Origin: Deltaproteobacteria bacterium HGW-Deltaproteobacteria-4
GTDB lineage: Bacteria; Desulfobacterota; Desulfuromonadia; Desulfuromonadales; UBA2197
NCBI GenBank assembly: GCA_002841765.1
Contig: PHAV01000002.1
Span: 201,604 to 265,603 of the forward strand
Reading direction: 5' to 3'
DNA: 64,000 bases
Shown here: positions 8,261-40,787 of the stretch, piece after piece
Position numbering within the stretch: position 1 is the stretch's first letter
How the letters are laid out: the number at the start of each line of letters is the position of its first letter
Notes under the pieces: generated by a model
Told to the model about the DNA's origin: nothing
Seen by the model: only the letters and a program-made list of their open reading frames with translations
Database searches by the model: none
Position numbers and translations under genes: made by a program

Positions 8261-8408
8261 TAAGGCAACCAAAAACAAGATATAGTTTTCGTCCCTACAG
8301 ATTTTCACAGAATCTCACCGCGACAAAATTGATTCAGACCTTGCTTTCAACCGCTAAGATTATATGTAGAGCTCGCAAAGCAGATCATTTACGTGGAGGA
8401 ATGACTCA

Positions 8409-9810: not shown

Positions 9811-10201
9811 GTACTGGTTCAGATTTTCATAGATTCGGGAGTCTGCGTCTCTTGATTTAAACCTAAGTATTCATAATCTTATATATTTATTGGCTTTAGT
9901 TGCTGTAAGGGGAAAAGTAAAGGATTTTCTAAATTATTTTTTTCAAATTAAAATATAAGTCATATAGTCTACATTAGCAATATTGCTAAGTTAGAAAAAA
10001 TTGTTTTGCCCCGCCAAACATCCTGAACTCCTCCCCCCCTTGCATAAAACTGCTCTTTCCCCCCATAGTTTGATTAAGTAAATCCCCTACTTTTGACTGG
10101 GGAATCTACCCGTCGCGTTGTGAGCTAATTTCTGCCGGTTGGGCAGTTTAGTGCTGATTGACTTTTTATTGCATTGAATTATTTTAATTCAGGGAGGTTT
10201 C

Positions 10202-10780
10202 ATGCGTTCACTATTCTTGCGGGGTTTTATCCTCCTTGCCCTCCTTGGCGGCTTGCTGCCGTCCAGCCTCTGTCACGCAGCTGACACCAGATATAAACGT
10301 TCGGTAGAGAAATATACGATTCCGGATGTGACCCTGACCAATCAGGATGGCAAAAAAGTTCAGCTGAAGTCCCTCCTTGAAGCCGACCATCCCGTTGTTG
10401 TCGACTTTATCTATGGCACCTGTACCACCATCTGTCCGGTTCTCTCTGTCGGTTTTCTCAATCTGCAAAAGAAAGTCACGGCCAGCGGCGGCAAGGTGAA
10501 GCTGGTCTCGATCACGATCGACCCGGAAAATGATAACCCCAAGATCTTGAAAGAATATCTGCAGCGTTATCGCGCCAAGCCGGGCTGGGATTTCCTGACC
10601 GGCAGTCGTGCGGACATCAATACGGTGATGCGGGCCTTTGATGCCTATATTCCCGACAAGATGTCGCACTATCCGATCAACCTCATCCGTTCCCCCAAGG
10701 ACGGCAGCTGGGTGCGTCTCTTCGGCATCATGAGCGGCAAAGAGTTTATAGACGAGTATCAACAGGTGACAGGGAAATGA
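10202..10780 (+). CDS. SCO1/SenC-family copper chaperone, exported
   Basis: Signal peptide, DVTLTNQDGK, CxxxC (CTTIC), VSITIDPENDNP, WDFLTG, conserved His (MSH). Confidence 0.9.
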   Translation: MRSLFLRGFILLALLGGLLPSSLCHAADTRYKRSVEKYTIPDVTLTNQDGKKVQLKSLLEADHPVVVDFIYGTCTTICPVLSVGFLNLQKKVTASGGKVKLVSITIDPENDNPKILKEYLQRYRAKPGWDFLTGSRADINTVMRAFDAYIPDKMSHYPINLIRSPKDGSWVRLFGIMSGKEFIDEYQQVTGK

Positions 10781-12474: not shown

Positions 12475-12619
12475 GTAAAAAACGCGCAGGAACAACACAA
12501 AGACCACTTATGGGACAAAGTCGTCCTGAATAGTTATAAATGGCGCAAAACTGGTCTGTTGACACTGTCGTCGATAGCCAAAGATTTTTAGAAACAACAA
12601 AGATTTGGGAGGTATTTTA

Positions 12620-15600: not shown

Positions 15601-18600
15601 TGCTCCGGCACTCCCCTTCGGCATCACCAACAGTCTGCGCCCGCTCAATCCAGCCATCCCGATCGATTCACCGATGGGCTTCAACAGCGTCGACTGGCAA
15701 ACCGGCGAAGCGAGAAACGAAGCGGTCACCAATGTCCTGTACAACTTCGGTTGGGAGTATGTCTGGCATTGCCACATCCTCAGCCATGAAGAGATGGATA
15801 TGATGCGGCCGATCGTGCTGAATGTCGCTACCGCCAAAGTGAGTGATTTCAGCTCCCCGGCCCCTGGCACTGCTCCGCAGGGTGTCGATGTCACCTGGAT
15901 GGATCCGACCCCGGTTGATTATGAAAATAATAGCGGTTTCGGCAATCCTGACAACGAAATCGGTTTCAAAATCTGGCGCTCCGCCGGCGCTACCGGCCCT
16001 TACACCAAGGTCGGCGCAGCTCTTGCCAACCAGACCACCTATAACGATAAAGACGGCTCCATTGCTGACGATTATGTCATCGAAGCTTTCAACGCCAGCG
16101 GCTCGACCTTCTCCTGGGTGAGTCCGGTCTCCCTTACTGTTGATGGCGGCTTTATTGCCCCGGCCACATTCACCCTGACGGCGACCGTCACACAGCCCTT
16201 GCTCCAGAGCGTCACCAAGGTGGAGTTCTTCAACGGCGACACCCTGATCGGCACTGATCTTGACGCTCCTTACACGGTCACTTTAACAGGGATGCAGCAA
16301 GGGTCTTTCGATTTAAAGGCGAGAGCCACGACCGATACACCGACAGAGAAAGGCCTTGAGGCTTTTGATACACTGACAGTCGATGTCAACACCAGTGGTC
16401 TGGCTGCTGATTTCACCGTCAATAACGGCGTTGAAATCGGCGTTTGTGATACCAGCACCCTTTATGACGCCAGCACCGGTGGCACCGCTACGGCCTGGGA
16501 ATGGCTGGTCAACGGCGTGACTTACACCACGCAAAATCCTGACCTCCCCGTCCTTCCGGCCGGGATTTACCCTGTCACCCTGAAAGTCACCGGCACCAGC
16601 GGTGAAGTCGCATCGGTGACCCAAGATGTAGAAATTGTCAATCATCCCCCGACCGCCGATGCCGGTGGACCGTACACGCTCAATTTTAATGGGACCGTTG
16701 CTCTTACAGGTTCCGGTGCTGATGCTCTCGATCCCTGCAACACCGCTTTCACCTATGCCTGGGATATTGATGGTGATGGAACATTTGAATATTCGCCCAA
16801 TCGGACGATCAGGTATTCCGTTATCCAGCCTTTACTTGGCTCGGGCGATTATCCGATCACCTTTAAAGTGACGGATTCAGGTGGTGCGTTTGCTACGGCT
16901 GATACAACTTTAAGTGTCGGGCCGGCACCGAATGCTGATGCTCCGGCAACCATCACTGTTCCGGCGTACAGTTCGACCGGCAGCTACACCATCTCCTGGG
17001 CTCCGGCAACCATCGTCGGCGCGACCTACACCCTCGAAGAAGCGACGGATAGCAATTTTACTAACGCCACCGTCGTCGCTTCCGGACTCACCACCACCTC
17101 AAAAGCGATTACCGGCAAGACCGGTGGTCTTTACTTTTATCGTGTCCAAACCATCGCCGTCGCCACCGTCCCCAGTACCTGGACCGCTGGTAATAACCCC
17201 TGCGCTATTCTGATCACGGCCATAACTGACCCTGTCAACGGCGCAAACTTCAATCCCGGCCAGTTGACGGCCATTGTCGGGACTGCGACCACCCCGACTG
17301 GTTATGTTGTCGCCAGCATGGCGTTTTACGAAAACGGTGTCCTGATCGGTACGGACAGCGATGGCGCACCTTATACCGTCGCTTACAACCCGACCAGTGG
17401 CGCCCACCTCCTGACCGCGACCACGACTTATGTTGGTGGCGCAGTATCGCCTTCATCTGATGTGGCGATTGCAATTGCCGGGGTCGATGCACCGGTCCTG
17501 ACCACAAGCAGCGCAATCTATGATCTTGGTGGCACCATCACCTTGAATGTCACACCGGCAGCCGTTGTCGGGGTTTTTCCTGTACCGACAGTTGTCGCTG
17601 TTGCCTACTATGAAAATGGCACACCCATTGGCTTTGATGACACTGCACCGTACAGCTTGGCCTGGGTACCGGCGACGGGTGGTGCAAAGGGTGTGACGGC
17701 TGTGGCTCTTTACAGCAATGGCATGTCAGCGACTTCGGCGGTGTTGTCGTTGTCATTGAACACGCAGGTTGCTGCTCCTGGTTTGATTTCTGTGCCAACC
17801 ACTAGTCCGACCGGGACTTATACAGTATCGTGGGGAGCCTCGGCGACGAGTGAAGTGACTTATGTGCTGGAAGAGTCTACGACAAATACTTTTGATGTCG
17901 TGACGTCACATCTGCCATCTAATTGGGCAACGACATCATTTGATATTATGGGAAAGTCTGGCGGGACATATTACTATCGCGTCTCGGCTGTGAAAGCCCC
18001 AATGGTAGCTAGTAATTGGACTGTTGATGGGAATGGTATATTTGTCGGTGCTCAAGCTCCTGCATTACTCAGCGTACCTGCGATCCCAACTAACGGGAAG
18101 GCCACCGTTCTGGCAGCAACCTCGCCAACACCTGGTGCAATATATCTCTTCGAATACAGCACTGACGGTTCGACTTGGACTGTAGCCTCTAATAGCACCA
18201 ATCGCGAGCCAATCATCACCTTACCGGCTCCGAATAACTACCAGTTCCGGGTTTCGGTGACAGCTACAGGCTATCAGCAGAGCAAATACACCGCTGGAAG
18301 TAATAATTGTAATTGGGTTGTTGTCCAAGCAACGGCACCGGTGACATTATCTGTTCCCGTAGCTCCAACCAACAGCAAGGTTGCTGTTCTGGCTGCGACC
18401 TCGCCGACGCCCGGTGCAATTTATCTTTTCGAATATAGTACTAACGGGGCGACATGGAGTATTGGCTCTAATAGTACTAATCGCGGGCCAACAATCACAT
18501 TGCCGGCACCCGGCAACTACCAGTTCCGGGTTTCAGTGACAGCAACCAATTTTACGCAGAGCGATTACACATCTGGCACTAATAACTGCAACTGGGTAGT

Positions 18601-19723
18601 CGTGCCAGCAACTGCACCTTCAACGCTATCTGTACCCCTGACTTCAACGAATGGGAAGGTCACGGTCCTGGCCGCAACCTCACCGACGCCGGGTGCTATT
18701 TATCTTGTCGAATACAGCACTAACGGATCGACCTGGAGTATCGGCTCCAATAGCACTAATCGCGGGCCAACCATCACACTGCCGGCACCTGGCAACTATC
18801 AGTTCCGGGTTTCAGTGACAGCAAGCAATTTTACGAAGAGCAGTTACACCCTTGGTAGCAACAACTGCAGCTGGGTAGCACCTCCTGCTACAGCACCGTC
18901 GTCTTTAAGTGTCCCTGCAATATCAACCAACGGAACAGTTGCATTGTTGGCGTCAATCTCTGCGACACCTAGTGCTATTTATTTGTTCGAATACAGTGTT
19001 GACGGTTCGACTTGGAGTACTGGCTATAGCGGTACAAATATTAACCCAACCATAACCCTGCCGGCTTCTGGCAACTACCAGTTCCGGGTTTCAGTAACAT
19101 CAGCAGCCTTTTCACAAAGTACGTTCACAATGGGCGGTAACAACTGTTATTGGTCAGGTGTAGTCCAGGCAGCGGCGCCAACAAGCCTGTCTGTACCCGT
19201 AGCGCCAACCGATGGAAAGGTTACGGTACTGGCCGCAACCTCGCCAACGCCGGGCGCGATTTATCTTGTCGAATACAGTACCGACGGTTTGACCTGGTCG
19301 AGTATCGGCTCAAATAACAGCGGACGCCAACCAACTATCACCCTGCCTGCCCCTGGCAACTACCAGTTCCGTGTTTCGGTGACAGCCGCAGGATATGCAC
19401 AAAGCACTTACACTGCCGGTAACAATAACTGCAATTGGGTGATTGTACCTGCAACGGCACCAGCGACACTGTCTGTGCCTTTAACTACAACGATCGGGAA
19501 GGTCACGGTTCTGGCCGCTACCTCACCGACGCCGGGTGCTATTTATCTTGTCGAATACAGTACCGACGGTTTGACCTGGTCGAGTATCGGCTCTAATAAC
19601 AGCGGACGCGAACCAACCATCACACTGCCAGCACCTGGTAACTATCAGTTCCGCGTATCGGTGACCGCAACGAACTTCACACAAAGTGGTTTCACCACTG
19701 GCAGTAATAATTGTAGCTGGTAG
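12620..19723 (+). CDS. Giant secreted multicopper oxidase (OmpB-like) with Ig-like, PKD, Fn3 domains and six C-terminal repeats
   Basis: All four MCO copper motifs: HMH (13505), HDH (13694), HPIHFH (15449), HCHILSHEEMDM (15767); Sec-type signal ending AFA; RBS GGAGG before ATG 12620. Confidence 0.92.
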   Translation: MKKQVSKVFWRLGLFTALTTLGGGLAFAADTVEDPILAAKTAQVYSQMEQRVTDEERAQAAAALKALRIQVYEAKKAVAKSKDGAPAKGIEVLDFKAIPTGPFDANGKPSVPDYYTTANWANSPPLAKFVDTLPGLGPDNANNLGKYLPVAVPDTVTYPGSDYYEIDLVEYNQQMHSDLPKSGTKLRGYVQANVNGGSNTACGNETGVECNDPMPVLYLGPVIVSERDRPVRIKFTNRLPNTGAGGDLFIPVDTSVMGAGTGPAYMGVSRGLGEPCNNDVEPNGCATYPQNRGNIHMHGGRTPWISDGTPHQWITPADENTPFVKGVSLQNVPDMPDPGDGASTYYFTNQQSARLMFYHDHSFGITRLNVYVGGAAGYLITDEYEQELINDGLIPEDQIPLVLQDKTFVDASEIRKYDPLWNWGSGAVDPVTKVREPVEGDLWLPHVYMPAQTSIAGFGGVNPFGRWMYGPWFYPATAVEKGPVANPYYDPDCSSTVPYILADCQTPGQPEQIPGTPNTSMGMEAFQDSVVVNGTAFPTLTVDPRAYRFRILNAASDRFWNLSFYEADSDPNNISPDPRLDPTSPSYLPGRSNRTEVKILPASIDLAKQNNWPENWPVDGRDGGVPDPATKGPSFLQIGTEGGFLPKPTIREAQPVTWMSDPTAFWVGVVDKTGLALGPAERADVIVDFSAYAGKTLILYNDAPAAWPARVASYDYFTGAEDLRSGGGYGAGGVYNPITGEWEGGHGILPGYAPNTRTVMQIVVTGGTSGLEAVDEPYEFDPVALHEVFVPTDPETESLFSRAQEPIIVGQAAYQDVYPDSYFPTNFPWEGVSQINDQMLNFVTVNNTVDNPQHVVAIQEPKGIHDEMGASFDPIYGRMSGNLAMQLPNPTTLNALLILYGFSDIPTEVIENSTELDVSIVPGTTTLADGTQIWKISHNGVDTHPIHFHIFDVQLINRVGWDGQIALPEENELGWKDTIKVSPLMDTIVAVRPRAPALPFGITNSLRPLNPAIPIDSPMGFNSVDWQTGEARNEAVTNVLYNFGWEYVWHCHILSHEEMDMMRPIVLNVATAKVSDFSSPAPGTAPQGVDVTWMDPTPVDYENNSGFGNPDNEIGFKIWRSAGATGPYTKVGAALANQTTYNDKDGSIADDYVIEAFNASGSTFSWVSPVSLTVDGGFIAPATFTLTATVTQPLLQSVTKVEFFNGDTLIGTDLDAPYTVTLTGMQQGSFDLKARATTDTPTEKGLEAFDTLTVDVNTSGLAADFTVNNGVEIGVCDTSTLYDASTGGTATAWEWLVNGVTYTTQNPDLPVLPAGIYPVTLKVTGTSGEVASVTQDVEIVNHPPTADAGGPYTLNFNGTVALTGSGADALDPCNTAFTYAWDIDGDGTFEYSPNRTIRYSVIQPLLGSGDYPITFKVTDSGGAFATADTTLSVGPAPNADAPATITVPAYSSTGSYTISWAPATIVGATYTLEEATDSNFTNATVVASGLTTTSKAITGKTGGLYFYRVQTIAVATVPSTWTAGNNPCAILITAITDPVNGANFNPGQLTAIVGTATTPTGYVVASMAFYENGVLIGTDSDGAPYTVAYNPTSGAHLLTATTTYVGGAVSPSSDVAIAIAGVDAPVLTTSSAIYDLGGTITLNVTPAAVVGVFPVPTVVAVAYYENGTPIGFDDTAPYSLAWVPATGGAKGVTAVALYSNGMSATSAVLSLSLNTQVAAPGLISVPTTSPTGTYTVSWGASATSEVTYVLEESTTNTFDVVTSHLPSNWATTSFDIMGKSGGTYYYRVSAVKAPMVASNWTVDGNGIFVGAQAPALLSVPAIPTNGKATVLAATSPTPGAIYLFEYSTDGSTWTVASNSTNREPIITLPAPNNYQFRVSVTATGYQQSKYTAGSNNCNWVVVQATAPVTLSVPVAPTNSKVAVLAATSPTPGAIYLFEYSTNGATWSIGSNSTNRGPTITLPAPGNYQFRVSVTATNFTQSDYTSGTNNCNWVVVPATAPSTLSVPLTSTNGKVTVLAATSPTPGAIYLVEYSTNGSTWSIGSNSTNRGPTITLPAPGNYQFRVSVTASNFTKSSYTLGSNNCSWVAPPATAPSSLSVPAISTNGTVALLASISATPSAIYLFEYSVDGSTWSTGYSGTNINPTITLPASGNYQFRVSVTSAAFSQSTFTMGGNNCYWSGVVQAAAPTSLSVPVAPTDGKVTVLAATSPTPGAIYLVEYSTDGLTWSSIGSNNSGRQPTITLPAPGNYQFRVSVTAAGYAQSTYTAGNNNCNWVIVPATAPATLSVPLTTTIGKVTVLAATSPTPGAIYLVEYSTDGLTWSSIGSNNSGREPTITLPAPGNYQFRVSVTATNFTQSGFTTGSNNCSW
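18044..19720 (+). repeat. Six tandem intragenic repeats of 279-282 bp (93-94 aa)
   Basis: Units start at about 18044, 18323, 18602, 18881, 19163, 19445; consensus AP..LSVP....GKVTVLAATSPTPGAIYL.EYST.G.TW...PTITLPAPGNYQFRVSVTA..NNC.W. Confidence 0.95.
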
Positions 19724-33887: not shown

Positions 33888-34649
33888 GTGCAGATTTCCA
33901 TCATCACCGCCAGCTACAATGCTGGTGCCACCATCACCGACTGCCTCAAAAGCATCAACTTTCAGACCACGCCGGTCGAGCATCTCATCATCGACGGCGC
34001 TTCCACCGATAACACCCTTGAACTCGTCCGGCAAATCAGTCCGCACGCCCGTATCCTCTCCGAACCTGACCGCGGTATTTACGACGCCATGAACAAGGGA
34101 ATCCGTCTGGCCAGCGGCGACATTATCGGCATCCTCAATGCCGATGATTTTTATGCCTCCCCCGATGTTCTCGCCCAAGTGGCAGCGGTCTTTGCAGACC
34201 CGACCGTTGCCGCCTGTTACGGCGATCTGCAATATGTTCAGGGGGGTGTGGGAGAAAAACCAACGGAATGCTTTAAAGTTGTCCGGCACTGGCAGTCCGA
34301 TCCCTTTTGCAGGTCAAGGTTTCTGTGGGGCTGGATGCCGCCGCACCCGACTTTCTTTGTGCGGAAAGAGATCTATGAACAGTACGGTACTTTCCGCCTC
34401 GACCTCGGTTCTGCGGCTGATTATGAGCTGATGCTCCGTCTTCTTTTCAAGCACCAGATCAAGGCGGTCTATATCACGCAAGTTCTGGTCAAGATGAGGG
34501 TAGGGGGGGTTAGCAATGCGAGTCTGAAAAACCGGATCACGGCGAACCTGATGGATCGCCGTGCCTGGGAGGTGAATGGGCTGAAGCCTTACCCGTGGAC
34601 GCTGCTGATGAAACCGCTACGCAAGTTGCGGCAGTTTTTGCAGCGATGA
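33888..34649 (+). CDS. Glycosyltransferase family 2 (WcaE-like)
   Basis: ISIITASYN, IDGASTD, EPDRGIYDAMNKG, LNADD, GWMPPHP, ADYELMLR; GTG 33888. Confidence 0.9.
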   Translation: MQISIITASYNAGATITDCLKSINFQTTPVEHLIIDGASTDNTLELVRQISPHARILSEPDRGIYDAMNKGIRLASGDIIGILNADDFYASPDVLAQVAAVFADPTVAACYGDLQYVQGGVGEKPTECFKVVRHWQSDPFCRSRFLWGWMPPHPTFFVRKEIYEQYGTFRLDLGSAADYELMLRLLFKHQIKAVYITQVLVKMRVGGVSNASLKNRITANLMDRRAWEVNGLKPYPWTLLMKPLRKLRQFLQR

Positions 34650-34670
34650 ATCGGAGGTCAAAATCAATTT

Positions 34671-34760
34671 GCCGCGGTGAAAATCTGTAAAAATCTGTTA
34701 GGACGGAAGCCATAGCTTTTTTGGTTAAACCAACAGACCTTGACAGATTTTCACCGCGGC
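34671..34760. repeat. Repeat family A, copy 1: 90-bp element with perfect 18-bp terminal inverted repeat
   Basis: GCCGCGGTGAAAATCTGT ... ACAGATTTTCACCGCGGC; internal TTGGTT-A-AACCAA palindrome. Confidence 0.9.
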
Positions 34761-34904
34761 TCATCGGCCTGAGAAGATATTATCAGAAGTCGATCTCGCC
34801 AGAAGTAGGCGCCCCGAGGCGAGTGAGCCAAGCGAACGTGCGAGACAAAGCTTTTCGTGCGGTGTTTAAAAGCGAATGGTCCCATTTTCCCAGGAGAAGT
34901 TGTC

Positions 34905-35153
34905 ATGCCTGAAATATGTCGCTTTCTTGGTATTGTTATCAGTATGTATTTTGATGAACACAACCCGCCACTCTTTCACGTCAAGTATAATGAACATAAA
35001 GCAGTCGTAGCGATATAAACCCTCAACATTCTGGACGGTCATCTCCCTGCCCGTGTCCGCGGGCTTATTGAAGAATGGGCAGAGTTACATCAGGATGAAT
35101 TGCTGAGCATGTGGGAATCACAAGAATTTCATAAAATTAAACCACTTGTCTAG
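34905..35153 (+). pseudogene. DUF4160-like gene with in-frame TAA at codon 38
   Basis: MPEICRFLGIVISMYFDEHNPPLFHVKYNEHKAVVAI*TLNILDGHLPARVRGLIEEWAELHQDELLSMW; AGGAG RBS; TAA at 35016-35018. Confidence 0.8.
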
Positions 35154-35163
35154 GAGGCCTGCC

Positions 35164-35457
35164 ATGATCGAGGTACTTGAGGCGGCATATCAGGAAGAAT
35201 ACAAAGTTTGGTTAAGATTCAACACCGGCGAAAGCGGCGTTGCTGATCTTAAGGATTTATTGCTCAAGTATAAAGTGGCCGCACCGCTCATTGATCAAAA
35301 TGAATTCAAAAAGTTTTACCTGGATGAATGGCCGACGCTGGCGTGGCCATGCGGTTTTGATGTTGCCCCGGAAACTCTGTATGAACGGGTCACCGGCAAA
35401 CGGCCAGATTGGCAGCAGTCAGCAATGGTCCATGAGGCACGAGAAGATTACAAGTAG
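35164..35457 (+). CDS. DUF2442-like protein (partner of DUF4160)
   Basis: YKVWLRFNTGESGVADL, TLAWPCGFDVAPETLY; ATG 35164 after AGGAGG. Confidence 0.8.
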   Translation: MIEVLEAAYQEEYKVWLRFNTGESGVADLKDLLLKYKVAAPLIDQNEFKKFYLDEWPTLAWPCGFDVAPETLYERVTGKRPDWQQSAMVHEAREDYK

Positions 35458-35495
35458 AGGCTCGTTCTCAAGATTCTCTCCGAGTCCTCTGTCCC

Positions 35496-35660
35496 TGGCA
35501 TACGGTGGTCAGCCTCGAAGCCGGCTCGGTCTTTTACGAAGCCAAACCTGGTCCCTTTGATCCCAGCCACAAAAGTGACATGGCGAGCTGGGCTCCGGAA
35601 GAAGGGAGCCCGGAACCGGCGTTCTTCTTCAAAGCGCTAAAGGGAACAAGCACCTTTTAA
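35496..35660 (+). pseudogene. 3' remnant of a WbuC-like cupin gene
   Basis: WHTVVSLEAGSVFYEAKPGPFDP..KSDMASWAPEEGSPE resembles the WbuC cupin C-terminus; no start or 5' half. Confidence 0.6.
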
Positions 35661-35723
35661 TAAAGCCAAAAGGAGCCAGCCGGCAGTCGCCGCATAGATT
35701 GTTTGGGAGACACGTTTTTTATT

Positions 35724-36092
35724 TTATTTCCGGTCTGATACGAAGGGGAGCAGTTGGCGAAGGGCTGCTATTATTTTATCCTGATCCGGGCTGGCGAGTT
35801 TTCCAGCTTTTCTGATAATCAACTTTTCGTCCAAGGTAAAGAGTTTCATCCGTATCACGGAAGGGGAGGGCAGGCCGGCAGAATCAAGATTTTGGATTTC
35901 AATATCCAGGGGCCAACCTGAATTTTTGGCACTGGTAATCATCGCCATGACGGCCTGGCCAACTTGGCAATTAAAGACCTGAGCATCGGAGAGAATCAAT
36001 GCCGGTCGGCGCTTGGTTGTGTTTTTGTCCGTAAAGGGGAAGGGGACAACAACCACATCGAAGGCATCAAAGTTCACGGTAGGCCTCTTCAT
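35724..36092 (-). CDS. PemK/MazF-family toxin
   Basis: DVVVVPFPFTD..TKRRPALILS, MITS, GLPSPSVIR. Confidence 0.9.
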   Translation of the reverse strand: MKRPTVNFDAFDVVVVPFPFTDKNTTKRRPALILSDAQVFNCQVGQAVMAMITSAKNSGWPLDIEIQNLDSAGLPSPSVIRMKLFTLDEKLIIRKAGKLASPDQDKIIAALRQLLPFVSDRK

Positions 36093-36297
36093 CGGCAGCT
36101 GATTCCCATTCGTTCAACGTCCCTTTCAGTGCCTCGGCAAAGACCAGATCCACAGGTCTTGCTTTTCTGAGGAGTATCTGATGACCCTCAATCTCAAAGG
36201 CAATGGCATCACCGGCTTTCAGGTGCAGTACTTTGCGGACCGGTTCCGGAATGGTTGCTTGATATTTTGATGTGATTTTGCTTGTCGCCGTTGCCAT
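36067..36297 (-). CDS. AbrB/MazE/SpoVT-family antitoxin
   Basis: SKITSKYQATIPEPVRKVLHLKAGDAIAF; acidic tail; ATG 36297 with AAGGAGG RBS; overlaps toxin start. Confidence 0.88.
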   Translation of the reverse strand: MATATSKITSKYQATIPEPVRKVLHLKAGDAIAFEIEGHQILLRKARPVDLVFAEALKGTLNEWESAADEEAYREL

Positions 36298-36315
36298 GGT
36301 TATGACCTCCTTTTT

Positions 36316-36348
36316 GGTAATACTAGCATTACCTGGTGCGTGTCGCAA
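36316..36348 (-). promoter_or_regulatory. sigma70 promoter with palindromic operator for the mazEF-like pair
   Basis: Minus strand TTGCGA-N17-TAGTAT; GGTAAT-N6-ATTACC (36316-36333) overlaps the -10. Confidence 0.7.
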
Positions 36349-36461
36349 GGTTGAGGGGGAGGAAGGTCAAAGGGGACAGGCACCCTTTAATGAGTCCACA
36401 AGAAGACAGTCCCTGTTCTCTGGCGGCTACTGATCTTGGAACTGACTGAATGGAAGATCGA

Positions 36462-36501
36462 TTGACCTGATAAGATGTACGTGATACGTTGTACATCACG
36501 T
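36462..36501 (+). promoter_or_regulatory. sigma70 promoter with overlapping palindromes for the phd-vapC pair
   Basis: TTGACC-N17-TACGTT; GATGTAC-N10-GTACATC and ACGTGAT-N9-ATCACGT span the -10. Confidence 0.7.
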
Positions 36502-36516
36502 TTACTGGAGGTCAAT

Positions 36517-36759
36517 ATGAGATCTTTATCCGTATCATCAGCGCGTAGCCAACTGCCGTCCCTTCTTGATGATGTTTTTACCAAGCACGAAACCATCATT
36601 ATCAGTCGTAAAGGAAAGCCTGTTGCCCAACTGACGCCAATCCCGTCCGATGCCTCTCTGGATGAAAGCAAACGCTTTCCCCTGCGGAGTATTGCCATTT
36701 CCATTGCTGACGATTTTGATGAACCGGCTCCGGAATTGTGGGAGGCGTTAGAGTCATGA
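36517..36759 (+). CDS. Phd/YefM-family antitoxin
   Basis: SVSSARSQLPSLLDDV...IIISRKGKPVAQLTPI, DDFDEP; ATG 36517 after GGAGG. Confidence 0.88.
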   Translation: MRSLSVSSARSQLPSLLDDVFTKHETIIISRKGKPVAQLTPIPSDASLDESKRFPLRSIAISIADDFDEPAPELWEALES

Positions 36760-37151
36760 TTGTGCTTGATACGCATGTCTGGCTCTGGTGGTTGCATGAT
36801 CCTGCCAAATTATCACCGACTGCTGTTAAGTTAATTGAGCAAGAGCAAGAATTAGGAGCGCTTATCCTCTCTTCTATCTCTATCTGGGAGGTGGCAGTCA
36901 AGGTCCAATCGGGCAGACTAGCTATTCCCATGGAGATATTGCAGTGGTATGAGTTGGCAAGAAGTTATCCAGCAACAGTGATTGAGCCACTTTCGCCCGT
37001 CGATGCTATTGCCAGCACTCAACTTCCCGGTGATTTTCATAAAGACCCAGCGGATCGAATGATTATCTCTCTCGCCCGGCGGTTGGCCATACCGCTTATT
37101 ACCTGCGATCGAAAAATCCTTGAGTACAAACATGTCCTGACTGCTTGGTGA
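36756..37151 (+). CDS. vapC: VapC PIN-domain toxin
   Basis: IVLDTHVWLWW, SISIWEV, FHKDPADRMI, LITCD; ATGA overlap with antitoxin. Confidence 0.92.
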   Translation: MIVLDTHVWLWWLHDPAKLSPTAVKLIEQEQELGALILSSISIWEVAVKVQSGRLAIPMEILQWYELARSYPATVIEPLSPVDAIASTQLPGDFHKDPADRMIISLARRLAIPLITCDRKILEYKHVLTAW

Positions 37152-37155
37152 ATTT

Positions 37156-37302
37156 GGCAAGCGCTCTATCACTGCTGATACCGCCTTGCGGCTGGGGCTT
37201 TATTTTGGGGTGTCTCCGGAACATTGGCTGAATCTGCAAACGGATTATGATTTGCGGGTTGCCCGGCGGCCGGCCGGAACCGGCGACCTTGATGGAAAGT
37301 GA
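37156..37302 (+). pseudogene. 3' remnant of a HigA-family antitoxin
   Basis: GKRSITADTALRLGLYFGVSPEHWLNLQTDYDL; the upstream frame is closed by TGA at 37138 and the N-terminal HTH part is missing. Confidence 0.75.
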
Positions 37303-37314
37303 ACAAGGCGTGAT

Positions 37315-37611
37315 CTAACTGCGGGATTTGATGCGGTTGGGATTTTGTTTCCCATGGAGACAGGCAATGATGACGATGTTCTCGTTGGTGATGATATAAA
37401 AAATCCCGTATGGGAACCTGCGCAGTAATGCCCTTTTTACAGTGCGATAAACAGTGGCATACATGGCGGGATTGCGGGCAATAGAGGCAATACAAACGTC
37501 AACGGCCCGAAGATACTCCGTTCCTAGTCCAGGATTTTGCTGGTCATACCAGATAGCCGCTGCCGCTATATCCGCTTCAGCTTGCTTCCGGACAACAATT
37601 TTGAGGTTCAT
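37315..37611 (-). CDS. RelE/ParE-family toxin
   Basis: AEADIAAAAIWYDQQNPGLG.EY, RALLRRFPYGIFY, IIACLH. Confidence 0.88.
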   Translation of the reverse strand: MNLKIVVRKQAEADIAAAAIWYDQQNPGLGTEYLRAVDVCIASIARNPAMYATVYRTVKRALLRRFPYGIFYIITNENIVIIACLHGKQNPNRIKSRS

Positions 37612-37829
37612 ACCCTACGCCATAAACGGGAGCGGACTTCATCCCAGGATGATTGTTCCTGGGGTTGTTGTGCGTACTCTTCAAGACGTTGATCTAATTC
37701 GTATTTTATGTCCGATGTTAGTTCAACCTTCTCTGGTTGGATGGCGATACTATCCCAAATATCTTCTACCAATTGAATCCGCTCCGGGATACTTAAGGAA
37801 AACAAGTCTTCAGCGGTTATTTGCGGCAT
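37608..37829 (-). CDS. Addiction-module antitoxin (TIGR02574-like)
   Basis: LSIPERIQLVEDIWDSI, ELDQRL, SWDEV; ATG 37829 with AAGGAG RBS; overlaps parE start. Confidence 0.85.
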   Translation of the reverse strand: MPQITAEDLFSLSIPERIQLVEDIWDSIAIQPEKVELTSDIKYELDQRLEEYAQQPQEQSSWDEVRSRLWRRV

Positions 37830-37938
37830 CGTGGTTATCTCCTTCGAAGTCATGCGTAACGCTTTGGATGAATATATATCATGACATCCGGAAAAATCTT
37901 AAGTTGAAAATTTGTTTCTCGGTTCGTTTGGCGGAAGC

Positions 37939-37969
37939 GAAGTGATCAGATTTTGATCCGCGTGCGATG
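37939..37969. repeat. Repeat family B, partial copy
   Basis: GAAGTGATCAGATTTTGATCCGCGTGCGATG, near-identical to 38936-38965. Confidence 0.8.
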
Positions 37970-38001
37970 ATTGTTGTTACTGCTAAGGTCAGAACTATTT
38001 T

Positions 38002-38094
38002 GCCGCGGTGAGAATCTATGAAAATCTGTCAGGGCGAAAGCTAAAAGCTTGTTTTTGGTTAAACCAACAGACCTTGACAGATTTTCACCGCGGC
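38002..38094. repeat. Repeat family A, copy 2
   Basis: GCCGCGGTGAGAATCTATGAAAATCTGTCA ... TTGGTTAAACCAACAGACCTTGACAGATTTTCACCGCGGC; the last 40 nt are identical to copy 1. Confidence 0.9.
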
Positions 38095-38112
38095 TAATTT
38101 GTTTGTGAAGTA

Positions 38113-38147
38113 ATATTATCAGAACTTATCAGATTTGATCCGCGTGC
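38113..38147. repeat. Repeat family B, partial copy following A2
   Basis: ATATTATCAGAACTTATCAGATTTGATCCGCGTGC; ATATTATCAGAA also follows A1 at 34777. Confidence 0.75.
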
Positions 38148-38173
38148 GGCGATGGGTGATTTTGAGTTTTGCG

Positions 38174-38202
38174 TTGACATACCGCACTGCCAATCGTACT
38201 AT
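38174..38202 (+). promoter_or_regulatory. Near-consensus sigma70 promoter for the last TA pair
   Basis: TTGACA-N17-TACTAT. Confidence 0.75.
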
Positions 38203-38238
38203 TCATGGTGTTGTTAAGCGCTTTATGGGAGGTGAGGT

Positions 38239-38499
38239 ATGAATACGATTTCAGCCAACGAATTGAAGACCAAGGGTGTTGCTTCGATTGAGTCGGCTTT
38301 AGCGAAGGGTGCGGAGGCGATTATTTCGGTGCGTGGCCAAGAGCGTTATGTGGTCATGAATCTGGACGAGTATAACCGGTTGAGGGTCTGCGAACTTGAA
38401 TCAGCCCTCTACGAAACGCGGCAGGAGTTTGCAGCCGGCGCGTTTGTCGAGGAGAGCGTGGATGAGCATATCGCGCGGATCCGGACGGCGGCGAGATGA
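38239..38499 (+). CDS. Phd/YefM-family antitoxin
   Basis: MNTISANELKTKG, IISVRGQERYVVM; GGAGG RBS. Confidence 0.82.
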   Translation: MNTISANELKTKGVASIESALAKGAEAIISVRGQERYVVMNLDEYNRLRVCELESALYETRQEFAAGAFVEESVDEHIARIRTAAR

Positions 38500-38771
38500 G
38501 CTTTCGGATCATCTATACCGATGCTTATCTGAAGCGCGCTACAAAGTTTATCAAGCGACATCCCGAAATTCTCCCTCAGTATGAAAAAACCCTGAAACTG
38601 CTGGAACTCAACCCGTCACACCCGTCTCTTCGCTTGCATCGTCTTGGTGGGGCTTTGCGGGATCTGCATTCAGTATCGATCAACATCAGCTATCGAATGA
38701 CCCTGGAGTTTTTTCTCGATGACGAGATGATCGTTTTGGTGAACGTCGGCAGTCATGATGACGTTTATTGA
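38496..38771 (+). CDS. RelE-superfamily (YafQ-like) mRNA interferase toxin
   Basis: LLELNPSHPSLRLHRL, SVSINISYR, C-terminal VGSHDDVY; ATGA overlap. Confidence 0.82.
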   Translation: MSFRIIYTDAYLKRATKFIKRHPEILPQYEKTLKLLELNPSHPSLRLHRLGGALRDLHSVSINISYRMTLEFFLDDEMIVLVNVGSHDDVY

Positions 38772-38809
38772 TGTTGGAATCGGATAACATCCCAAGGCCA
38801 TAACCCTTC

Positions 38810-38838
38810 GCCGCGGCGAGAATCTATGAAAATCTGTC
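38810..38838. repeat. Repeat family A, left half only
   Basis: GCCGCGGCGAGAATCTATGAAAATCTGTC, 28/29 identical to the start of A2. Confidence 0.8.
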
Positions 38839-38875
38839 TCGCTTGCAGTTACCAATATCTTAAAGACTTATTGGA

Positions 38876-38965
38876 CGCAGTTAAAATCTGAAAAGGCATG
38901 ATTTTAAACACAAAGCTAATTGATTGGTTCAATCAGAAGTGATCAGATTTGATCCGCGTGCGATG
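38876..38965. repeat. Repeat family B, full copy 2
   Basis: Homologous to 9723-9810 (62/80 in the core alignment). Confidence 0.75.
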
Positions 38966-39134
38966 AATGAGGGCTTTGTTGCCCTCCTGTTGCGATCCCC
39001 TCGCAAAATACTTTGCGGCGTTCTCTTCCTGTGCTATTAATCCTTCGTACCGCTCTTATCTGAACACGTTGACAGCGCCCGCTTCAGTCGGGCCGCGCTG
39101 CGGCGCTTTAATTATACCTGGATGGGGTTCCTGA

Positions 39135-40787
39135 ATGCCTTCAATCACCCTCTTTTATATCCTGCTGACCGCTCTCTTCGTTGTCCTGATCCTGATCCCG
39201 CCCATCACCCGTTTGGCGATCACTCTCGATAAAGTCGATATCCCGGACGCGCGCAAGATCCATAGCGGTAAAATTCCCCGTCTTGCCGGTATCGCCATCT
39301 TCCTTGCGGTGTTGTTCTCGATTCTCCTTTTCTGCGACATTACCCGTCCGGTTCGGGGCTTTCTCGCCGGCGGGGTCATTATCTTTGCCACCGGGCTTTA
39401 TGACGATCTCATCGGTCTGCGGCCGCGCTGGAAATTGCTCGGGGAGATCCTGGCCGCGCTGACCGCCGTGCTCATCGGTGATGTCGCTCTTAACAACCTC
39501 GGAAATCTGGTCGGCACCGGCGATCTTCATCTCGGCTGGCTGGCCATTCCCTTTACGGTGCTGGGGATTGTCGGGGTCACCAATGCCATCAATCTGCTCG
39601 ATGGTCTTGATGGCCTCGCCGGCGGTATTTCCACCATTGCCGCTGTTGCCCTGGCCCTTCTGGCTTATATGGCCGGTCACCAGCAACTCCTTTATTTGCT
39701 TGTCGCCCTCCTCGGCGCCCTCCTCGGCTTCCTCAAATTCAACACTTATCCGGCCCGCATCTTTATGGGCGACAGCGGCAGCCTCTTTATCGGCTACAGC
39801 CTTGCGCTCTTTGCCGTCATCCTGTGCGGCGGCGCTGAAAGCCATATTTCCGCAATCACTCCGCTGCTGCTGCTGGTGGTGCCGATCGTCGATACCTTTA
39901 TTGTCATGGTCAGCCGCTGGCGCCGTGGTCTGGCCCTCTCTTCCCCGGATAATACCCATATCCATCATCGTCTGCTCGGGGTCGGTTTCGGCCACAAAGC
40001 GACGGTGATCATTCTCTATTCCCTCAGTTATTGCATGGCGATTGTCGCTATCGGGCTCAGTCGCTTGCCGGATTATCAGCAGCTGGGGTTCCTTGTGCCG
40101 ATTATCCTCGTTTTGGCGTTTCTGCATCACTACATCAACCCGCAGCTACTCGATAATCTTCCGCTGCTGCGCAGCGATGAGTCGTTGCGGCAGAGTCCCG
40201 CCTACCGGCTCCTGCTCCTTTATTCCGGAAATATCCTGTCGATGGTGAAATATCTGGTACTGATCGCGGTCGCCCTGGCGGTCTTTCTCCCGGCCGACCT
40301 TTCGATCAATGCCCCGATCGTTGCACTGCTGCTGCTGCTGTTGTCCCTCACCGTTCTGGCGATGACGCGCGACTGGGGCAACCCTTTCCTCCATTTCCTT
40401 CTTTATGTCGACGGTGCTTATCTCCTCTTTCTGCTCGAGAACTACGGCAAGGCTGCGCACTTCGCCGGACTCCCGCTTTTGGCTCTTTCCCACGTCCTCT
40501 TTTTGCTGCTGCTGCTGTGTTGTGCTCTCCGACTTTATATCGATCGCCGCTCGCGCCATCTGATGCAATCGCCGCTGGAGTATCTCCTTTTTTTCCTCGT
40601 GGTCTCGGTGCCGCTCCTCCCTCAGGATTTCTTGCAACGCTATGATCTTTTGATGGTGATGGCGAAGACGGTGATCCTCTTTGCTGCCTATCGCATGGTG
40701 CAGTTGCGCAAGGGGCAGCGGCACCGGCGGATCGTGTTGGTCACGCTGCTGACCTTGCTGGTGGTGGCGGTGAAGGGTTTTCTCTAA
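39135..40787 (+). CDS. wecA: MraY/WecA-family undecaprenyl-phosphate sugar-1-phosphate transferase with C-terminal membrane extension
   Basis: ARKIH, GLYDD, NAINLLDGLDGLAGG, IFMGDSG, PDNTHIHHRLL. Confidence 0.88.
   Translation: MPSITLFYILLTALFVVLILIPPITRLAITLDKVDIPDARKIHSGKIPRLAGIAIFLAVLFSILLFCDITRPVRGFLAGGVIIFATGLYDDLIGLRPRWKLLGEILAALTAVLIGDVALNNLGNLVGTGDLHLGWLAIPFTVLGIVGVTNAINLLDGLDGLAGGISTIAAVALALLAYMAGHQQLLYLLVALLGALLGFLKFNTYPARIFMGDSGSLFIGYSLALFAVILCGGAESHISAITPLLLLVVPIVDTFIVMVSRWRRGLALSSPDNTHIHHRLLGVGFGHKATVIILYSLSYCMAIVAIGLSRLPDYQQLGFLVPIILVLAFLHHYINPQLLDNLPLLRSDESLRQSPAYRLLLLYSGNILSMVKYLVLIAVALAVFLPADLSINAPIVALLLLLLSLTVLAMTRDWGNPFLHFLLYVDGAYLLFLLENYGKAAHFAGLPLLALSHVLFLLLLLCCALRLYIDRRSRHLMQSPLEYLLFFLVVSVPLLPQDFLQRYDLLMVMAKTVILFAAYRMVQLRKGQRHRRIVLVTLLTLLVVAVKGFL

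What the first reader, a model, noticed from the sequence alone, without database searches (positions are those of the whole stretch)
34650..38970. Dense toxin-antitoxin array (five pairs plus remnants in 4.3 kb) inside the capsule locus, with no integrase or transposase
Seen, in order: DUF4160*/DUF2442 (+), WbuC remnant, AbrB/MazF (-), Phd/VapC (+), HigA remnant, TIGR02574/ParE (-), Phd/YafQ-like (+). Orientations alternate, junctions are abrupt and repeats lie in the spacers, all between the last GT and wecA. Known: TA cassette arrays stabilise superintegrons and islands, and RNase toxins can abort phage infection. Inference: a cassette-accumulating hotspot that either locks in the variable capsule block or pairs receptor variation with intracellular anti-phage defence, filled by a mechanism other than a classic integron.
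Basis: partly seen in the sequence, partly recalled or inferred. Interest (0 to 1): 0.72.

Follow-up and report, generated by a model that had tools for sequence, protein, structure and literature searches.

The report
Toxin-antitoxin array beside polysaccharide genes
A 4.3-kb run of five small toxin-antitoxin gene pairs really does sit between the last sugar-transferase gene and the wecA-like gene of a sediment bacterium's surface-polysaccharide locus; related strains carry different sets in the same slot, so it is an integrase-free recombination hotspot, interesting but a variation on known themes.

Summary
Window 34650-38970 holds five type II toxin-antitoxin (TA) pairs: DhiT/DhiA-like (toxin killed by one in-frame TAA), MazEF, Phd/VapC, TIGR02574/ParE and Phd-like/RelE-YafQ-like. 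It also holds a WbuC 3' remnant and a HigA 3' remnant.

No other TA gene, integrase, transposase or tRNA lies in the 64-kb window. The source is a Desulfuromonadales-like MAG.

Strains whose wecA-like protein is 85-93% identical carry different TA sets in the same slot, with shared modules in a different order. More distant relatives have one pair or none.

Shared modules show dN/dS of 0.06-0.24 and dS close to that of wecA, so they are old residents under purifying selection, not recent arrivals.

Two strains that are 99% identical from MazEF onward carry unrelated polysaccharide genes to its left. Genomes also keep remnants of each other's terminal polysaccharide genes. Locus replacement therefore breaks inside the array, which argues against the "lock-in" idea.

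Module borders coincide with dispersed repeats, including a widespread ~110-nt palindrome family. None resembles attC in a crude screen. Any defence role is untested.

The parts
33888..34649 (+). Last polysaccharide gene before the array: a GT2 glycosyltransferase of 253 aa.
   Evidence: Gene call and Pfam PF00535. A remnant of its 3' end, 83% identical, survives in relative L013 at 4740-5060.
34655..34776 (+). Repeat A copy 1: a ~110-nt imperfect palindrome with an 18-bp outer stem.
   Evidence: (DNA fold -29.8 kcal/mol, z = -7.4).
34905..35153 (+). dhiT-like (DUF4160) toxin pseudogene, with a single in-frame TAA at 35016-35018.
   Evidence: The read-through translation scores 88 bits against NF048015. 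The DhiTA family was validated experimentally in Dickeya (PMC8198452).
35164..35457 (+). dhiA-like (DUF2442) antitoxin gene, intact.
   Evidence: PF10387, 53.6 bits; gene call of 97 aa.
35494..35660 (+). wbuC (cupin) 3' remnant.
   Evidence: TIGR04366 positions 103-132, E = 1.7e-5. It is 92% identical in DNA to a remnant in L012 (3541-3668) and 78% identical to the 3' end of L012's intact wbuC.
35640..35679 (+). Repeat C copy 1 (degenerate REP-like hairpin), on the left flank of the MazEF module.
35724..36077 (-). mazF/pemK toxin gene.
   Evidence: PF02452, 58.5 bits. 97% aa identity to L012, dN/dS 0.08.
36067..36297 (-). mazE/AbrB-type antitoxin gene.
   Evidence: PF04014 at 33.8 bits and TIGR01439. 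dN/dS 0.06.
36372..36425 (+). Repeat C copy 2. It lies between MazEF and Phd/VapC, and the left junction of the Phd/VapC module falls at its 3' edge.
36517..36759 (+). phd/yefM antitoxin gene.
   Evidence: PF02604, 35.1 bits. dN/dS 0.16-0.23.
36756..37151 (+). vapC (PIN) toxin gene. The acidic residues D5, E44, D98 and D118 are present by inspection.
   Evidence: PF01850, 58.5 bits. dN/dS 0.07-0.13 against L012, L013 and L002.
37153..37302 (+). higA 3' remnant, starting right after the vapC stop. Its end is fused to repeat D (37262-37294).
   Evidence: TIGR02607, 50.5 bits, positions 43-80. The full 96-aa HigA follows VapC in L012 and L013; the window lacks about 234 bp of that region.
37315..37611 (-). 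parE toxin gene.
   Evidence: PF05016, 39.1 bits.
37608..37829 (-). TIGR02574 / Unstab_antitox antitoxin gene.
   Evidence: TIGR02574 at 70.5 bits and PF09720 at 48.8 bits.
37939..38158 (+). Repeat block B1 (37939-37976), A2 (37986-38110) and B2 (38118-38158): an A palindrome flanked by direct copies of B.
   Evidence: A2 fold z = -5.6. Logan contigs break here.
38239..38499 (+). phd-like antitoxin gene (sub-threshold match). A TTGACA-17-TACTAT promoter-like site lies at 38174-38202.
   Evidence: PF02604, 24.7 bits, below the cut-off. Weak YefM hit in the PDB. Promoter-like site. Conserved as a pair in L015 and L016.
38496..38771 (+). RelE/ParE-superfamily (YafQ/HigB-like) toxin gene, overlapping the antitoxin gene by 4 nt.
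   Evidence: Full-length sub-threshold matches to PF05015, PF15738, TIGR00053 and TIGR02385. 1,413 homologues, named RelE/ParE or YafQ toxin by their sources. dN/dS 0.11 against L015.
38794..38972 (+). Half copy of repeat A (38794-38849) and repeat B3 (38932-38972). This is the right edge of the variable region.
   Evidence: Homology with relatives resumes at 38941-39119 depending on the relative.
39135..40787 (+). Conserved right anchor: the wecA-like initiating glycosyl-1-phosphate transferase (550 aa), followed by tex.
   Evidence: PF00953. Orthologues of 85-93% identity served as anchors.
8266..8344 (-). Fourth copy of repeat A, outside the array, upstream of the UDP-glucose dehydrogenase gene.
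   Evidence: nhmmer E = 3e-12. A Logan contig ends just there.

Best explanation
The region is a lineage-specific, integrase-free flexible hotspot. It sits at the junction between the exchangeable genes of a Wzx/Wzy-type polysaccharide locus and the conserved wecA-like gene, in a Desulfuromonadales clade.

It is occupied by autonomous type II TA addiction modules. Each has its own promoter region and is separated from its neighbours by terminator-like or palindromic dispersed repeats.

The modules are old residents kept intact by purifying selection. Most likely they persist because an addiction module is hard to lose.

The array changes in two ways:
- Recombination, deletion and duplication at or next to the short dispersed repeats (A, B, C, D and the ~500-nt repeat E seen in relatives). 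This reorders, removes and truncates modules.
- Replacement of the neighbouring polysaccharide genes by incoming DNA, with right-hand crossovers that fall inside the array. These events leave truncated terminal genes (wbuC, GT2) as scars and can bring in new modules, for example the A1 + DhiTA block unique to this genome.

Shown: content, turnover, breakpoints, scars, selection, and the absence of integron hallmarks.

Inferred: that repeats mediate the rearrangements, that persistence is due to addiction, and what benefit, if any, the host gains.
For: - **TA identities:**
- **Clustering:** ten TA genes lie in 4.3 kb and none in the other ~60 kb.
- **Same slot, different content:** L012, L013, L015, L016, L002 and L003, whose wecA-like protein is 85-93% identical.
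- **More distant relatives:** one ParDE-like pair at 70% identity, none at 66% or 54%.
- **Shared modules, different order:** modules are 83-95% identical in DNA, but MazEF precedes Phd/VapC here and follows it in L012 and L013.
- **Clean indel:** L002 lacks window 37152-39004.
- **Selection:** dN/dS is 0.06-0.24, with dS of 0.14-0.29 for modules against 0.28 for wecA in the L012 comparison.
- **Breakpoint inside the array:** L012 and L013 are 99.05% identical over 14,158 nt starting exactly at the 3' edge of MazF, with unrelated polysaccharide genes to the left.
- **Reciprocal scars:** the window has a wbuC remnant while wbuC is intact in L012. L013 has a remnant of the window's GT2 3' end plus a wbuC fragment. 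L012 has two further wbuC remnants.
- **Junctions at repeats:** the left junction of the Phd/VapC module is at the same base in three genomes, preceded by repeat C here and repeat D in L012 and L013. B copies bracket the whole array in L012 and bracket A2 and the Phd/YafQ block here.
- **No mobile-element hallmarks:** no integrase, transposase or tRNA; no attC-like pairs; no similarity to known plasmids or phages beyond one 144-nt match.
- **Composition:** GC is 0.47-0.52 across 19-39 kb against 0.57-0.63 from wecA onward, as expected for an exchanged locus.
Against: - All comparison genomes are metagenome assemblies. Several contigs end just upstream of wecA (L002, L003, L014, L016), so their content is only partly seen.
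- Repeat-mediated recombination is inferred from coincident positions, not from a statistical test of breakpoints against a genome-wide repeat map.
- Some junctions lie at no detected repeat: the VapC/HigA' junction, and the right junction of the L002 indel, which shows only GATCC microhomology.
- dS estimates rest on 9-29 synonymous differences per gene.
- No expression, toxicity or neutralisation data exist.
- A benefit to the host (defence or stabilisation) is not excluded.
Confidence: 0.68

Rival explanations
1. The array is an anti-phage defence islet, functionally coupled to the adjacent surface-polysaccharide (phage receptor) locus. The RNase and gyrase-type toxins would act as abortive-infection modules, selected together with receptor variation.
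For: - Modules are kept under purifying selection.
- In relative L015 the same slot holds a PADLOC candidate defence gene (AAA_14/DUF4143 = PDC-S01, E = 2e-80) and an MNT/HEPN pair.
- A second, unrelated TA array (L040 + L046) also sits inside a polysaccharide locus.
- Core-gene-flanked defence hotspots without mobile-element hallmarks are known (PMC10250203).
Against: - None of the five window toxins or DhiA hits a PADLOC model.
- No restriction, CRISPR, CBASS or similar system lies in the 64 kb.
- Purifying selection is equally expected for selfish addiction modules.
- There are no phage data.
Confidence: 0.17
2. The array stabilises ("locks in") the neighbouring variable polysaccharide block by killing cells that delete the region, as TA cassettes do in the Vibrio superintegron.
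For: Dense addiction modules lie next to a dispensable gene block, and the modules are intact and conserved. This is an analogy from established knowledge of superintegron TA cassettes.
Against: - L012 and L013 share a 99%-identical right half of the array and downstream DNA, but have entirely different polysaccharide genes.
- Gene remnants show repeated replacement.
- The array sits at one end of a ~25-kb block rather than being interspersed in it.
Confidence: 0.07
3. The array is a decayed integron cassette array (a CALIN), or a platform fed by an integron-like recombinase encoded elsewhere, with the palindromic A repeats serving as attC-like sites.
For: - TA cassettes are typical of chromosomal integrons, and CALINs lacking integrases are common (PMC4889954).
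- Repeat A is a ~110-nt imperfect palindrome of attC-like size.
- In L040 and L046, A lies between nearly every co-oriented module.
- A neighbours are enriched in TA families.
Against: - No IntI in 64 kb.
- No R''(RYYYAAC)/R'(GTTRRRY) pair with L boxes anywhere in the interval.
- The A consensus lacks these boxes.
- Genes alternate in orientation and have their own promoter regions.
- A also occurs beside housekeeping genes, as 120-nt tandem arrays, and is present or absent between the same two modules in L046 versus L123.
- Close relatives with the same hotspot lack A altogether.
Confidence: 0.05
4. The array is a remnant of an integrated mobile element (ICE, prophage or plasmid), or an assembly chimera of a MAG.
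For: Lower GC than the flanks, and repeats that break short-read assemblies.
Against: - No integrase, tRNA, phage, conjugation or replication genes.
- No meaningful match in 72,556 plasmids or 50,697 phages.
- The arrangement is reproduced in a JGI assembly and, piecewise, in a Logan assembly.
- Orthologous arrays occur in the same slot in relatives.
Confidence: 0.03

Closest known systems
Core-gene-flanked defence/accessory hotspots without mobile-element hallmarks (e.g. the core defense hotspots of Pseudomonas aeruginosa, PMC10250203)
   Same: The slot is fixed next to a conserved gene. Its content varies between close relatives. No integrase or transposase is present. The cargo is small stress or defence-type modules.
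   Different: The cargo here is almost only type II TA pairs, not recognised defence systems. One flank is itself a variable polysaccharide gene block rather than a second core gene. Module borders carry dispersed repeats.
TA cassettes in sedentary chromosomal integrons, and CALIN arrays (PMC4889954)
   Same: Many TA pairs lie in tandem, separated by ~100-nt palindromic elements, and CALINs lack a nearby integrase.
   Different: No attC sequence or structure boxes were found. Orientation alternates. Modules carry their own promoters. The palindromes are absent from close relatives that have the same hotspot, and they also occur at housekeeping genes.
Recombination junctions of O-antigen and capsule loci (conserved flanking genes used as crossover points; established knowledge for E. 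coli galF/gnd and pneumococcal dexB/aliA)
   Same: Whole polysaccharide gene blocks are replaced between near-identical strains. Truncated genes are left as scars at the border.
   Different: The crossover zone is a TA array rather than a housekeeping gene. I found no description of this in the papers searched.
ERIC / Correia / MITE- and REP-like dispersed palindromic repeats (established knowledge)
   Same: Repeat A is a ~110-nt imperfect palindrome. It is intergenic and multi-copy, shows insertion polymorphism, sometimes forms tandem arrays, and carries a promoter-like TTGACA...TAATAT motif. Repeats C and D are short GC-rich hairpins.
   Different: The sequence family matches no Rfam family. 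Its neighbours are enriched in TA and other small accessory modules. Its transposase or other mobilising enzyme is unknown.
DhiTA (DUF4160/DUF2442) type II TA of Dickeya dadantii (PMC8198452)
   Same: The same domain pair in the same toxin-first gene order.
   Different: The scores are below the NCBIfam equivalog cut-offs (88 bits against 100; 27 against 200), and the toxin carries a premature stop.

Membership tests
Type II toxin-antitoxin module (each of the five pairs) | Two small adjacent co-directional genes, overlapping or a few bases apart. | tested here: met
   The mazE/F, phd/vapC, TIGR02574/parE and phd-like/relE-like pairs overlap by 4-11 nt. dhiT (read through its stop) ends 10 nt before dhiA.
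Type II toxin-antitoxin module (each of the five pairs) | Toxin and antitoxin match curated family profiles above the gathering score. | tested here: met
   Met for MazF, MazE, Phd, PIN, ParE, Unstab_antitox/TIGR02574, DUF4160 and DUF2442. The fifth pair is sub-threshold (24.7 against 29.8; 21.6 against 27) but belongs to a 1,413-member family whose members pass PF15738 or PF05015 and are named RelE/ParE toxin.
Type II toxin-antitoxin module (each of the five pairs) | The toxin arrests growth and the cognate antitoxin neutralises it. | not testable with these tools
   Indirect evidence only: intact reading frames, dN/dS 0.06-0.24, and the PIN acidic residues present by inspection. DhiT is certainly truncated.
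Integron / CALIN | An integron integrase (IntI) next to the array; not required for a CALIN. | tested here: not met
   No tyrosine recombinase among the gene products of the 64-kb window.
Integron / CALIN | At least two attC sites (R''/L''/L'/R' boxes, about 50-150 nt) on one strand within 4 kb (PMC4889954). | tested here: inconclusive
   My own pattern screen for RYYYAAC...GTTRRRY with complementary L boxes found none on either strand. The repeat A consensus lacks the boxes. IntegronFinder's covariance model was not available, so sensitivity is unknown.
Integron / CALIN | Mostly promoterless, co-oriented cassettes, each ending in an attC. | tested here: not met
   Orientation runs + + - - + + - - + +. 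Only some module borders carry a repeat, and the repeat family differs from border to border.
Core-gene-anchored flexible or defence hotspot | The same conserved flanking gene with different cargo in close relatives. | tested here: met
Core-gene-anchored flexible or defence hotspot | Cargo enriched in recognised anti-phage systems. | tested here: not met
   No PADLOC hit for the window proteins. The only hit is PDC-S01 in relative L015.
Dispersed palindromic repeat (ERIC/MITE/REP-like), for repeat A | Multi-copy, intergenic, imperfect palindrome with a stable hairpin. | tested here: met
   Four copies in the window. Fold z-scores of -5.6 to -7.4. 456 nhmmer hits (both strands counted) in 120 metagenome stretches. 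Short-read contigs break at copies.
Dispersed palindromic repeat (ERIC/MITE/REP-like), for repeat A | Insertion polymorphism independent of the flanking genes. | tested here: met
   L046 has two A copies between the VapC and ORF6N modules. L123 has the same two modules (about 91% identical) with no A between them. Close relatives of the window genome lack A in the hotspot.
Dispersed palindromic repeat (ERIC/MITE/REP-like), for repeat A | Target-site duplication and a cognate transposase. | not tested
   A2 is flanked by direct copies of the ~35-nt repeat B, which is too long for a usual target-site duplication. No partner enzyme was identified.

The most novel reading that the evidence does not exclude
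The ~110-nt A palindromes, together with the B repeat that brackets inserted blocks, could be the recombination sites of an unrecognised cassette system in Desulfobacterota-like bacteria. Its enzyme would be encoded in trans. It would move TA pairs and other small modules (PDDEXK_3, ORF6N) into spacers, and arrays at polysaccharide-locus borders would be its sedentary platforms.

Evidence that leaves this open:
- Neighbours of A are enriched in TA families.
- L040 + L046 form a co-oriented array with an A copy between nearly every module.
- The same PDDEXK_3 and Phd/YafQ-type modules are bounded by A within a few to ~125 nt in several unrelated contigs, sometimes in permuted order.
Probability: 0.1. 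Interest if true: 0.8.

Novelty: new member of a known kind. Interest (0 to 1): 0.45.

Why it matters
It is a clean natural example of how chromosomal TA arrays evolve. The modules behave as long-lived residents that are reshuffled, truncated and differentially lost at a fixed slot, with no dedicated recombinase.

It also shows that the crossover zone for swapping a whole surface-polysaccharide gene block can lie inside a TA array. That bears on two standing ideas:
- It argues against the view that TA arrays stabilise adjacent dispensable DNA.
- It leaves open the view that intracellular defence is linked to receptor variation.

The palindromic A family, enriched beside TA modules in many environmental contigs, is a lead for a new class of dispersed repeat, or less likely a new cassette mechanism.

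Tried and rejected
- **Rfam scan of the array at E <= 1.** The only hit was a chance miRNA match on the A palindrome. No known RNA family is present.
- **attC pattern screen.** It found nothing. It is crude, because shuffles also gave zero, so it says little about sensitivity.
- **Metagenome scan with a 17-mer.** A 17-mer is short enough that many single hits could be chance. I therefore relied on BLAST and nhmmer extension to full-length A copies.
- **Plasmid and phage BLAST.** No useful match.
- **PDB sequence search for the fifth pair.** Only E of about 0.5 hits, to H. pylori RelE/YafQ-like toxins and to YefM. These are suggestive only. A structure prediction was judged unnecessary.
- **PADLOC.** Negative for the window proteins.
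- **Promoter and terminator scan.** Counts did not exceed shuffles. Only the site at 38174-38202 is well placed.
- **Two context look-ups.** They added little, and one protein was not on record.
- **The single genome-contig scan.** It gave only two close relatives, both cut just upstream of wecA. The better comparisons came from protein-anchored look-ups.
- **Treating A as a fixed cassette boundary.** I considered this and rejected it as the main reading because of the A presence/absence polymorphism and its absence from close relatives.

Full report
**Source and setting**

The window is part of contig JAEMOH010000029.1 of assembly GCA_017973775.1. Its close relatives are labelled Desulfuromonadales or Desulfuromonadaceae MAGs.

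The window's first 34.6 kb encode a Wzx/Wzy-type polysaccharide locus:
- phosphomannomutase, a CpsB phosphatase, Wza, a Wzc tyrosine kinase and UDP-glucose dehydrogenase;
- an inserted SCO1 gene and a giant multicopper-oxidase/PKD gene;
- a Wzx flippase, about ten glycosyltransferases, an aminotransferase and an acetyltransferase.

After the array come a 550-aa wecA-like (Glycos_transf_4) gene, tex, and housekeeping genes: mscS, a GTPase, fab genes, glyA, nrdR and rib genes.

GC is 0.46-0.52 from 19 to 39 kb and 0.57-0.63 from wecA onward.

**Check of the observation**

- Four TA pairs are intact and match curated profiles above threshold: MazE/MazF, Phd/VapC, TIGR02574/ParE, and the DUF2442 partner of the DhiTA pair.
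- The DUF4160 (DhiT) toxin has exactly one in-frame TAA, at 35016-35018. Read through it, the gene matches the DhiT profile over positions 1-78 of 84 (88 bits). DhiTA is an experimentally validated, toxin-first TA family (PMC8198452).
- The fifth pair (38239-38771) is sub-threshold on every profile. Its toxin nevertheless belongs to a very large, tightly conserved family. Some members pass the YafQ or HigB models, and sources name them RelE/ParE-family toxin in Trichloromonas, Desulfuromonas soudanensis and Geotalea.
- The WbuC and HigA remnants are confirmed by profile and by DNA homology to full-length genes in relatives.

No other TA gene, integrase, transposase or tRNA is in the window. 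That is ten TA genes in 4.3 kb against none in about 60 kb.

The arrangement recurs in a JGI assembly. An independent Logan assembly also has it, with contigs that break exactly at the A/B repeats.

**Repeats**

Four repeat families lie in the spacers, and within the window they occur almost only there.
- A is a ~110-nt imperfect palindrome with an 18-bp outer stem (DNA fold z = -5.6 to -7.4). Copies lie at 34655-34776, 37986-38110 and, as a half copy, 38794-38849. A fourth copy lies at 8266-8344.
- B (~35 nt) occurs three times as direct repeats. These bracket A2 and the Phd/YafQ block.
- C is a REP-like hairpin that flanks MazEF on both sides.
- D is a GC-rich hairpin fused to the end of the HigA remnant.

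No Rfam family matches any of them.

**Turnover in relatives**

I anchored on the wecA-like protein and recovered the upstream DNA of relatives.

| Locus | wecA-like aa identity | Content of the slot upstream of wecA |
|---|---|---|
| L012 | 92% | intact wbuC, B, an HTH pair, a wbuC remnant, Phd/VapC, full HigA, a second wbuC remnant, two unknown genes, MazEF, two further Phd/PIN pairs, B |
| L013 | 93% | unrelated polysaccharide genes, a remnant of the window's GT2 3' end, Phd/VapC, HigA, a wbuC fragment, MazEF, the same two Phd/PIN pairs |
| L015 | 88% | unknown genes, MNT/HEPN, an AAA_14/DUF4143 gene (PADLOC PDC-S01), the Phd/YafQ-like pair |
| L016 | 88% (same wecA-like protein as L015) | the Phd/YafQ-like pair next to wecA (contig is short) |
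| L002 | 85% | Phd/VapC directly abutting wecA; window 37152-39004 is absent |
| L003 | 85% | only C repeats in the 280 nt visible |
| L137 | 70% | one ParDE-like pair |
| L139, L140 | 66%, 54% | no TA genes |

The slot is therefore a hotspot confined to a narrow clade.

**Age and selection**

Shared modules are 83-95% identical in DNA.
- Their dN/dS is 0.06-0.24, against 0.13-0.15 for wecA.
- Their dS is of the same order as that of wecA in the same genome pair. Against L012, modules give 0.19-0.29 and wecA 0.28.

This pattern fits descent of the modules together with the flanking core gene, followed by differential loss and rearrangement. It does not fit rapid capture of foreign cassettes. 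No module has a meaningful match in the plasmid or phage collections.

**How the array changes**

- Module order differs. MazEF lies left of Phd/VapC-HigA in the window and right of it in L012 and L013.
- The left junction of the Phd/VapC module is at the same base in three genomes. It is preceded by repeat C in the window and by repeat D in L012 and L013. C and D lie side by side elsewhere (L012 8844-8913).
- B copies bracket the entire array in L012, at 2842-2871 and 9806-9825.
- The window lost about 234 bp that removed the 5' half of higA.
- L012 and L013 are 99.05% identical over 14,158 nt starting exactly at the 3' edge of mazF. To the left they have only 94%-identical displaced modules and completely different polysaccharide genes. 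A recent replacement of the polysaccharide block therefore had its crossover inside the array.
- The genomes carry each other's scars. The window holds a wbuC 3' end, and wbuC is the intact terminal gene in L012. L013 holds the 3' end of the window's terminal GT2 gene, 83% identical over 324 nt, plus a wbuC fragment. L012 holds two extra wbuC remnants.
- The A1 + DhiTA block lies left of the wbuC scar and is unique to the window genome. That fits arrival together with the current polysaccharide genes. This last step is inference.

**Repeat A beyond this genome**

A 17-mer from the A arm found more than 120 metagenome stretches. A 17-mer is short enough that many single hits could be chance. 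BLAST and nhmmer, however, show full-length A-like palindromes, often many per contig: 456 hits, both strands counted.
- Of 144 ORFs within 300 nt of a copy, many belong to TA-type families: HTH_3 6, HepT 4, PIN 4, Phd 3, ParE 2, MNT 2. Others are PDDEXK_3 (5) and nucleotide-sugar dehydratases or epimerases (5). Housekeeping genes are also present.
- Among 150 control ORFs more than 1.5 kb from any copy, none of the TA-specific families seen near A (PIN, Phd, ParE, HepT, MNT, HTH_3) reached two members. AAA_21 (annotated as a putative AbiEii toxin) matched 3 controls and 4 near ORFs, alongside ABC-transporter hits.
- Contigs L040 and L046, from one sample, form a second, unrelated array. It has at least five TA pairs plus other small genes, all co-oriented. 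An A copy lies between nearly every module. The array is bounded by a wzx flippase plus an IS3 element on one side and a UDP-glucose dehydrogenase gene on the other.
- Homologous PDDEXK_3 and Phd/YafQ-type modules are bounded by A copies in several contigs.
- Against a cassette-site role: A is present between two modules in L046 but absent between the same modules in L123. It forms 120-nt tandem arrays. It sits beside housekeeping genes. It is absent from the window's own close relatives.

I therefore read A as an ERIC/MITE-like dispersed palindrome that accumulates in spacers of flexible DNA. It may offer homology for recombination. A true cassette-site role remains a low-probability possibility.

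**Not an integron**

No IntI is present, orientations alternate, and each module has its own upstream region. A screen for R''/R' boxes with complementary L boxes found nothing, though this is not the IntegronFinder model (PMC4889954).

**Function**

The best-supported statement is structural and evolutionary: this is an integrase-free recombination hotspot populated by addiction modules.
- Stabilisation of the polysaccharide block is contradicted by the L012/L013 comparison.
- Anti-phage defence is plausible by analogy, and because L015 carries a candidate defence gene in the slot. The window's proteins hit no PADLOC model, however, and nothing was tested.
- Selfish persistence of addiction modules at a site where foreign DNA repeatedly recombines is the simplest account.

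**Verdict**

The array is a new member of a known kind: a core-gene-anchored flexible hotspot and TA cluster.

Two points are worth a specialist's attention:
- polysaccharide-locus replacement breakpoints and scars lie inside a TA array;
- a widespread palindromic repeat family is associated with TA modules.

Noticed in passing
window 8266-8344 (-): A fourth copy of the A palindrome lies between the Wzc kinase gene and the UDP-glucose dehydrogenase gene, far from the TA array. A Logan contig of the same organism ends just there.
   Followed up: partly
L040 3774-7011 and L046 1-6303 (sample Ga0256834): A second, unrelated TA array inside a polysaccharide locus. It has at least five TA pairs plus PDDEXK_3, ORF6N and small coiled-coil genes, all co-oriented. 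An A copy lies between nearly every module. It is bounded by a wzx flippase plus an IS3 transposase on one side and a UDP-glucose dehydrogenase gene on the other.
   Followed up: partly
L054 181-761 and 1172-1399; also L064, L035, L107: A-family palindromes occur as head-to-tail tandem arrays with a 120-nt period (4.8 copies, 93% matches). This is unlike cassette spacing.
   Followed up: partly
L012 3805-4315 and 5485-5849; L013 5156-6003; L015 105-596, 2383-2959, 2990-3487, 4469-4743: A ~500-nt repeat (E) ending in repeat D occurs several times per array in the relatives. It contains a 74-80-aa ORF with no Pfam match. Only its D end is present in the window (37262-37294).
   Followed up: no
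L015 4963-6562: An AAA_14/DUF4143 ATPase gene (PADLOC candidate PDC-S01, E = 2e-80) ends 4 nt into the Phd-like/YafQ-like pair. This suggests a three-gene operon in that relative.
   Followed up: no
L012 6140-7397 and L015 990-2326: A gene pair of 198 and 222 aa, 94% identical between the two relatives, sits in the hotspot and matches nothing in Pfam or PADLOC.
   Followed up: partly
window 10202-19723: An SCO1/SenC gene, a 565-aa gene and a 2,372-aa multicopper-oxidase/PKD/Big_7 gene interrupt the polysaccharide locus between the UDP-glucose dehydrogenase gene and the Wzx flippase gene.
   Followed up: no
L040 4076-4369 and 4723-5091; L046 177-437: Small coiled-coil proteins that share the C-terminal motif HR(G/K)VYGVRE(D/E) recur between A copies. 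They have no family assignment.
   Followed up: no
L003 205-245; L013 about 5320-5365: Another hairpin repeat (GCGGGGGCCCCC-AATAAAT-GGGGCCCCC) recurs upstream of wecA or inside the array in relatives.
   Followed up: no
window 37939-38158: The A2 palindrome is flanked by direct copies of the ~35-nt B repeat. B copies also bracket the Phd/YafQ block here and the whole array in L012. B-like sequences occur near A in three unrelated metagenome contigs (L017, L038, L110). The meaning of this bracketing is unexplained.
   Followed up: partly
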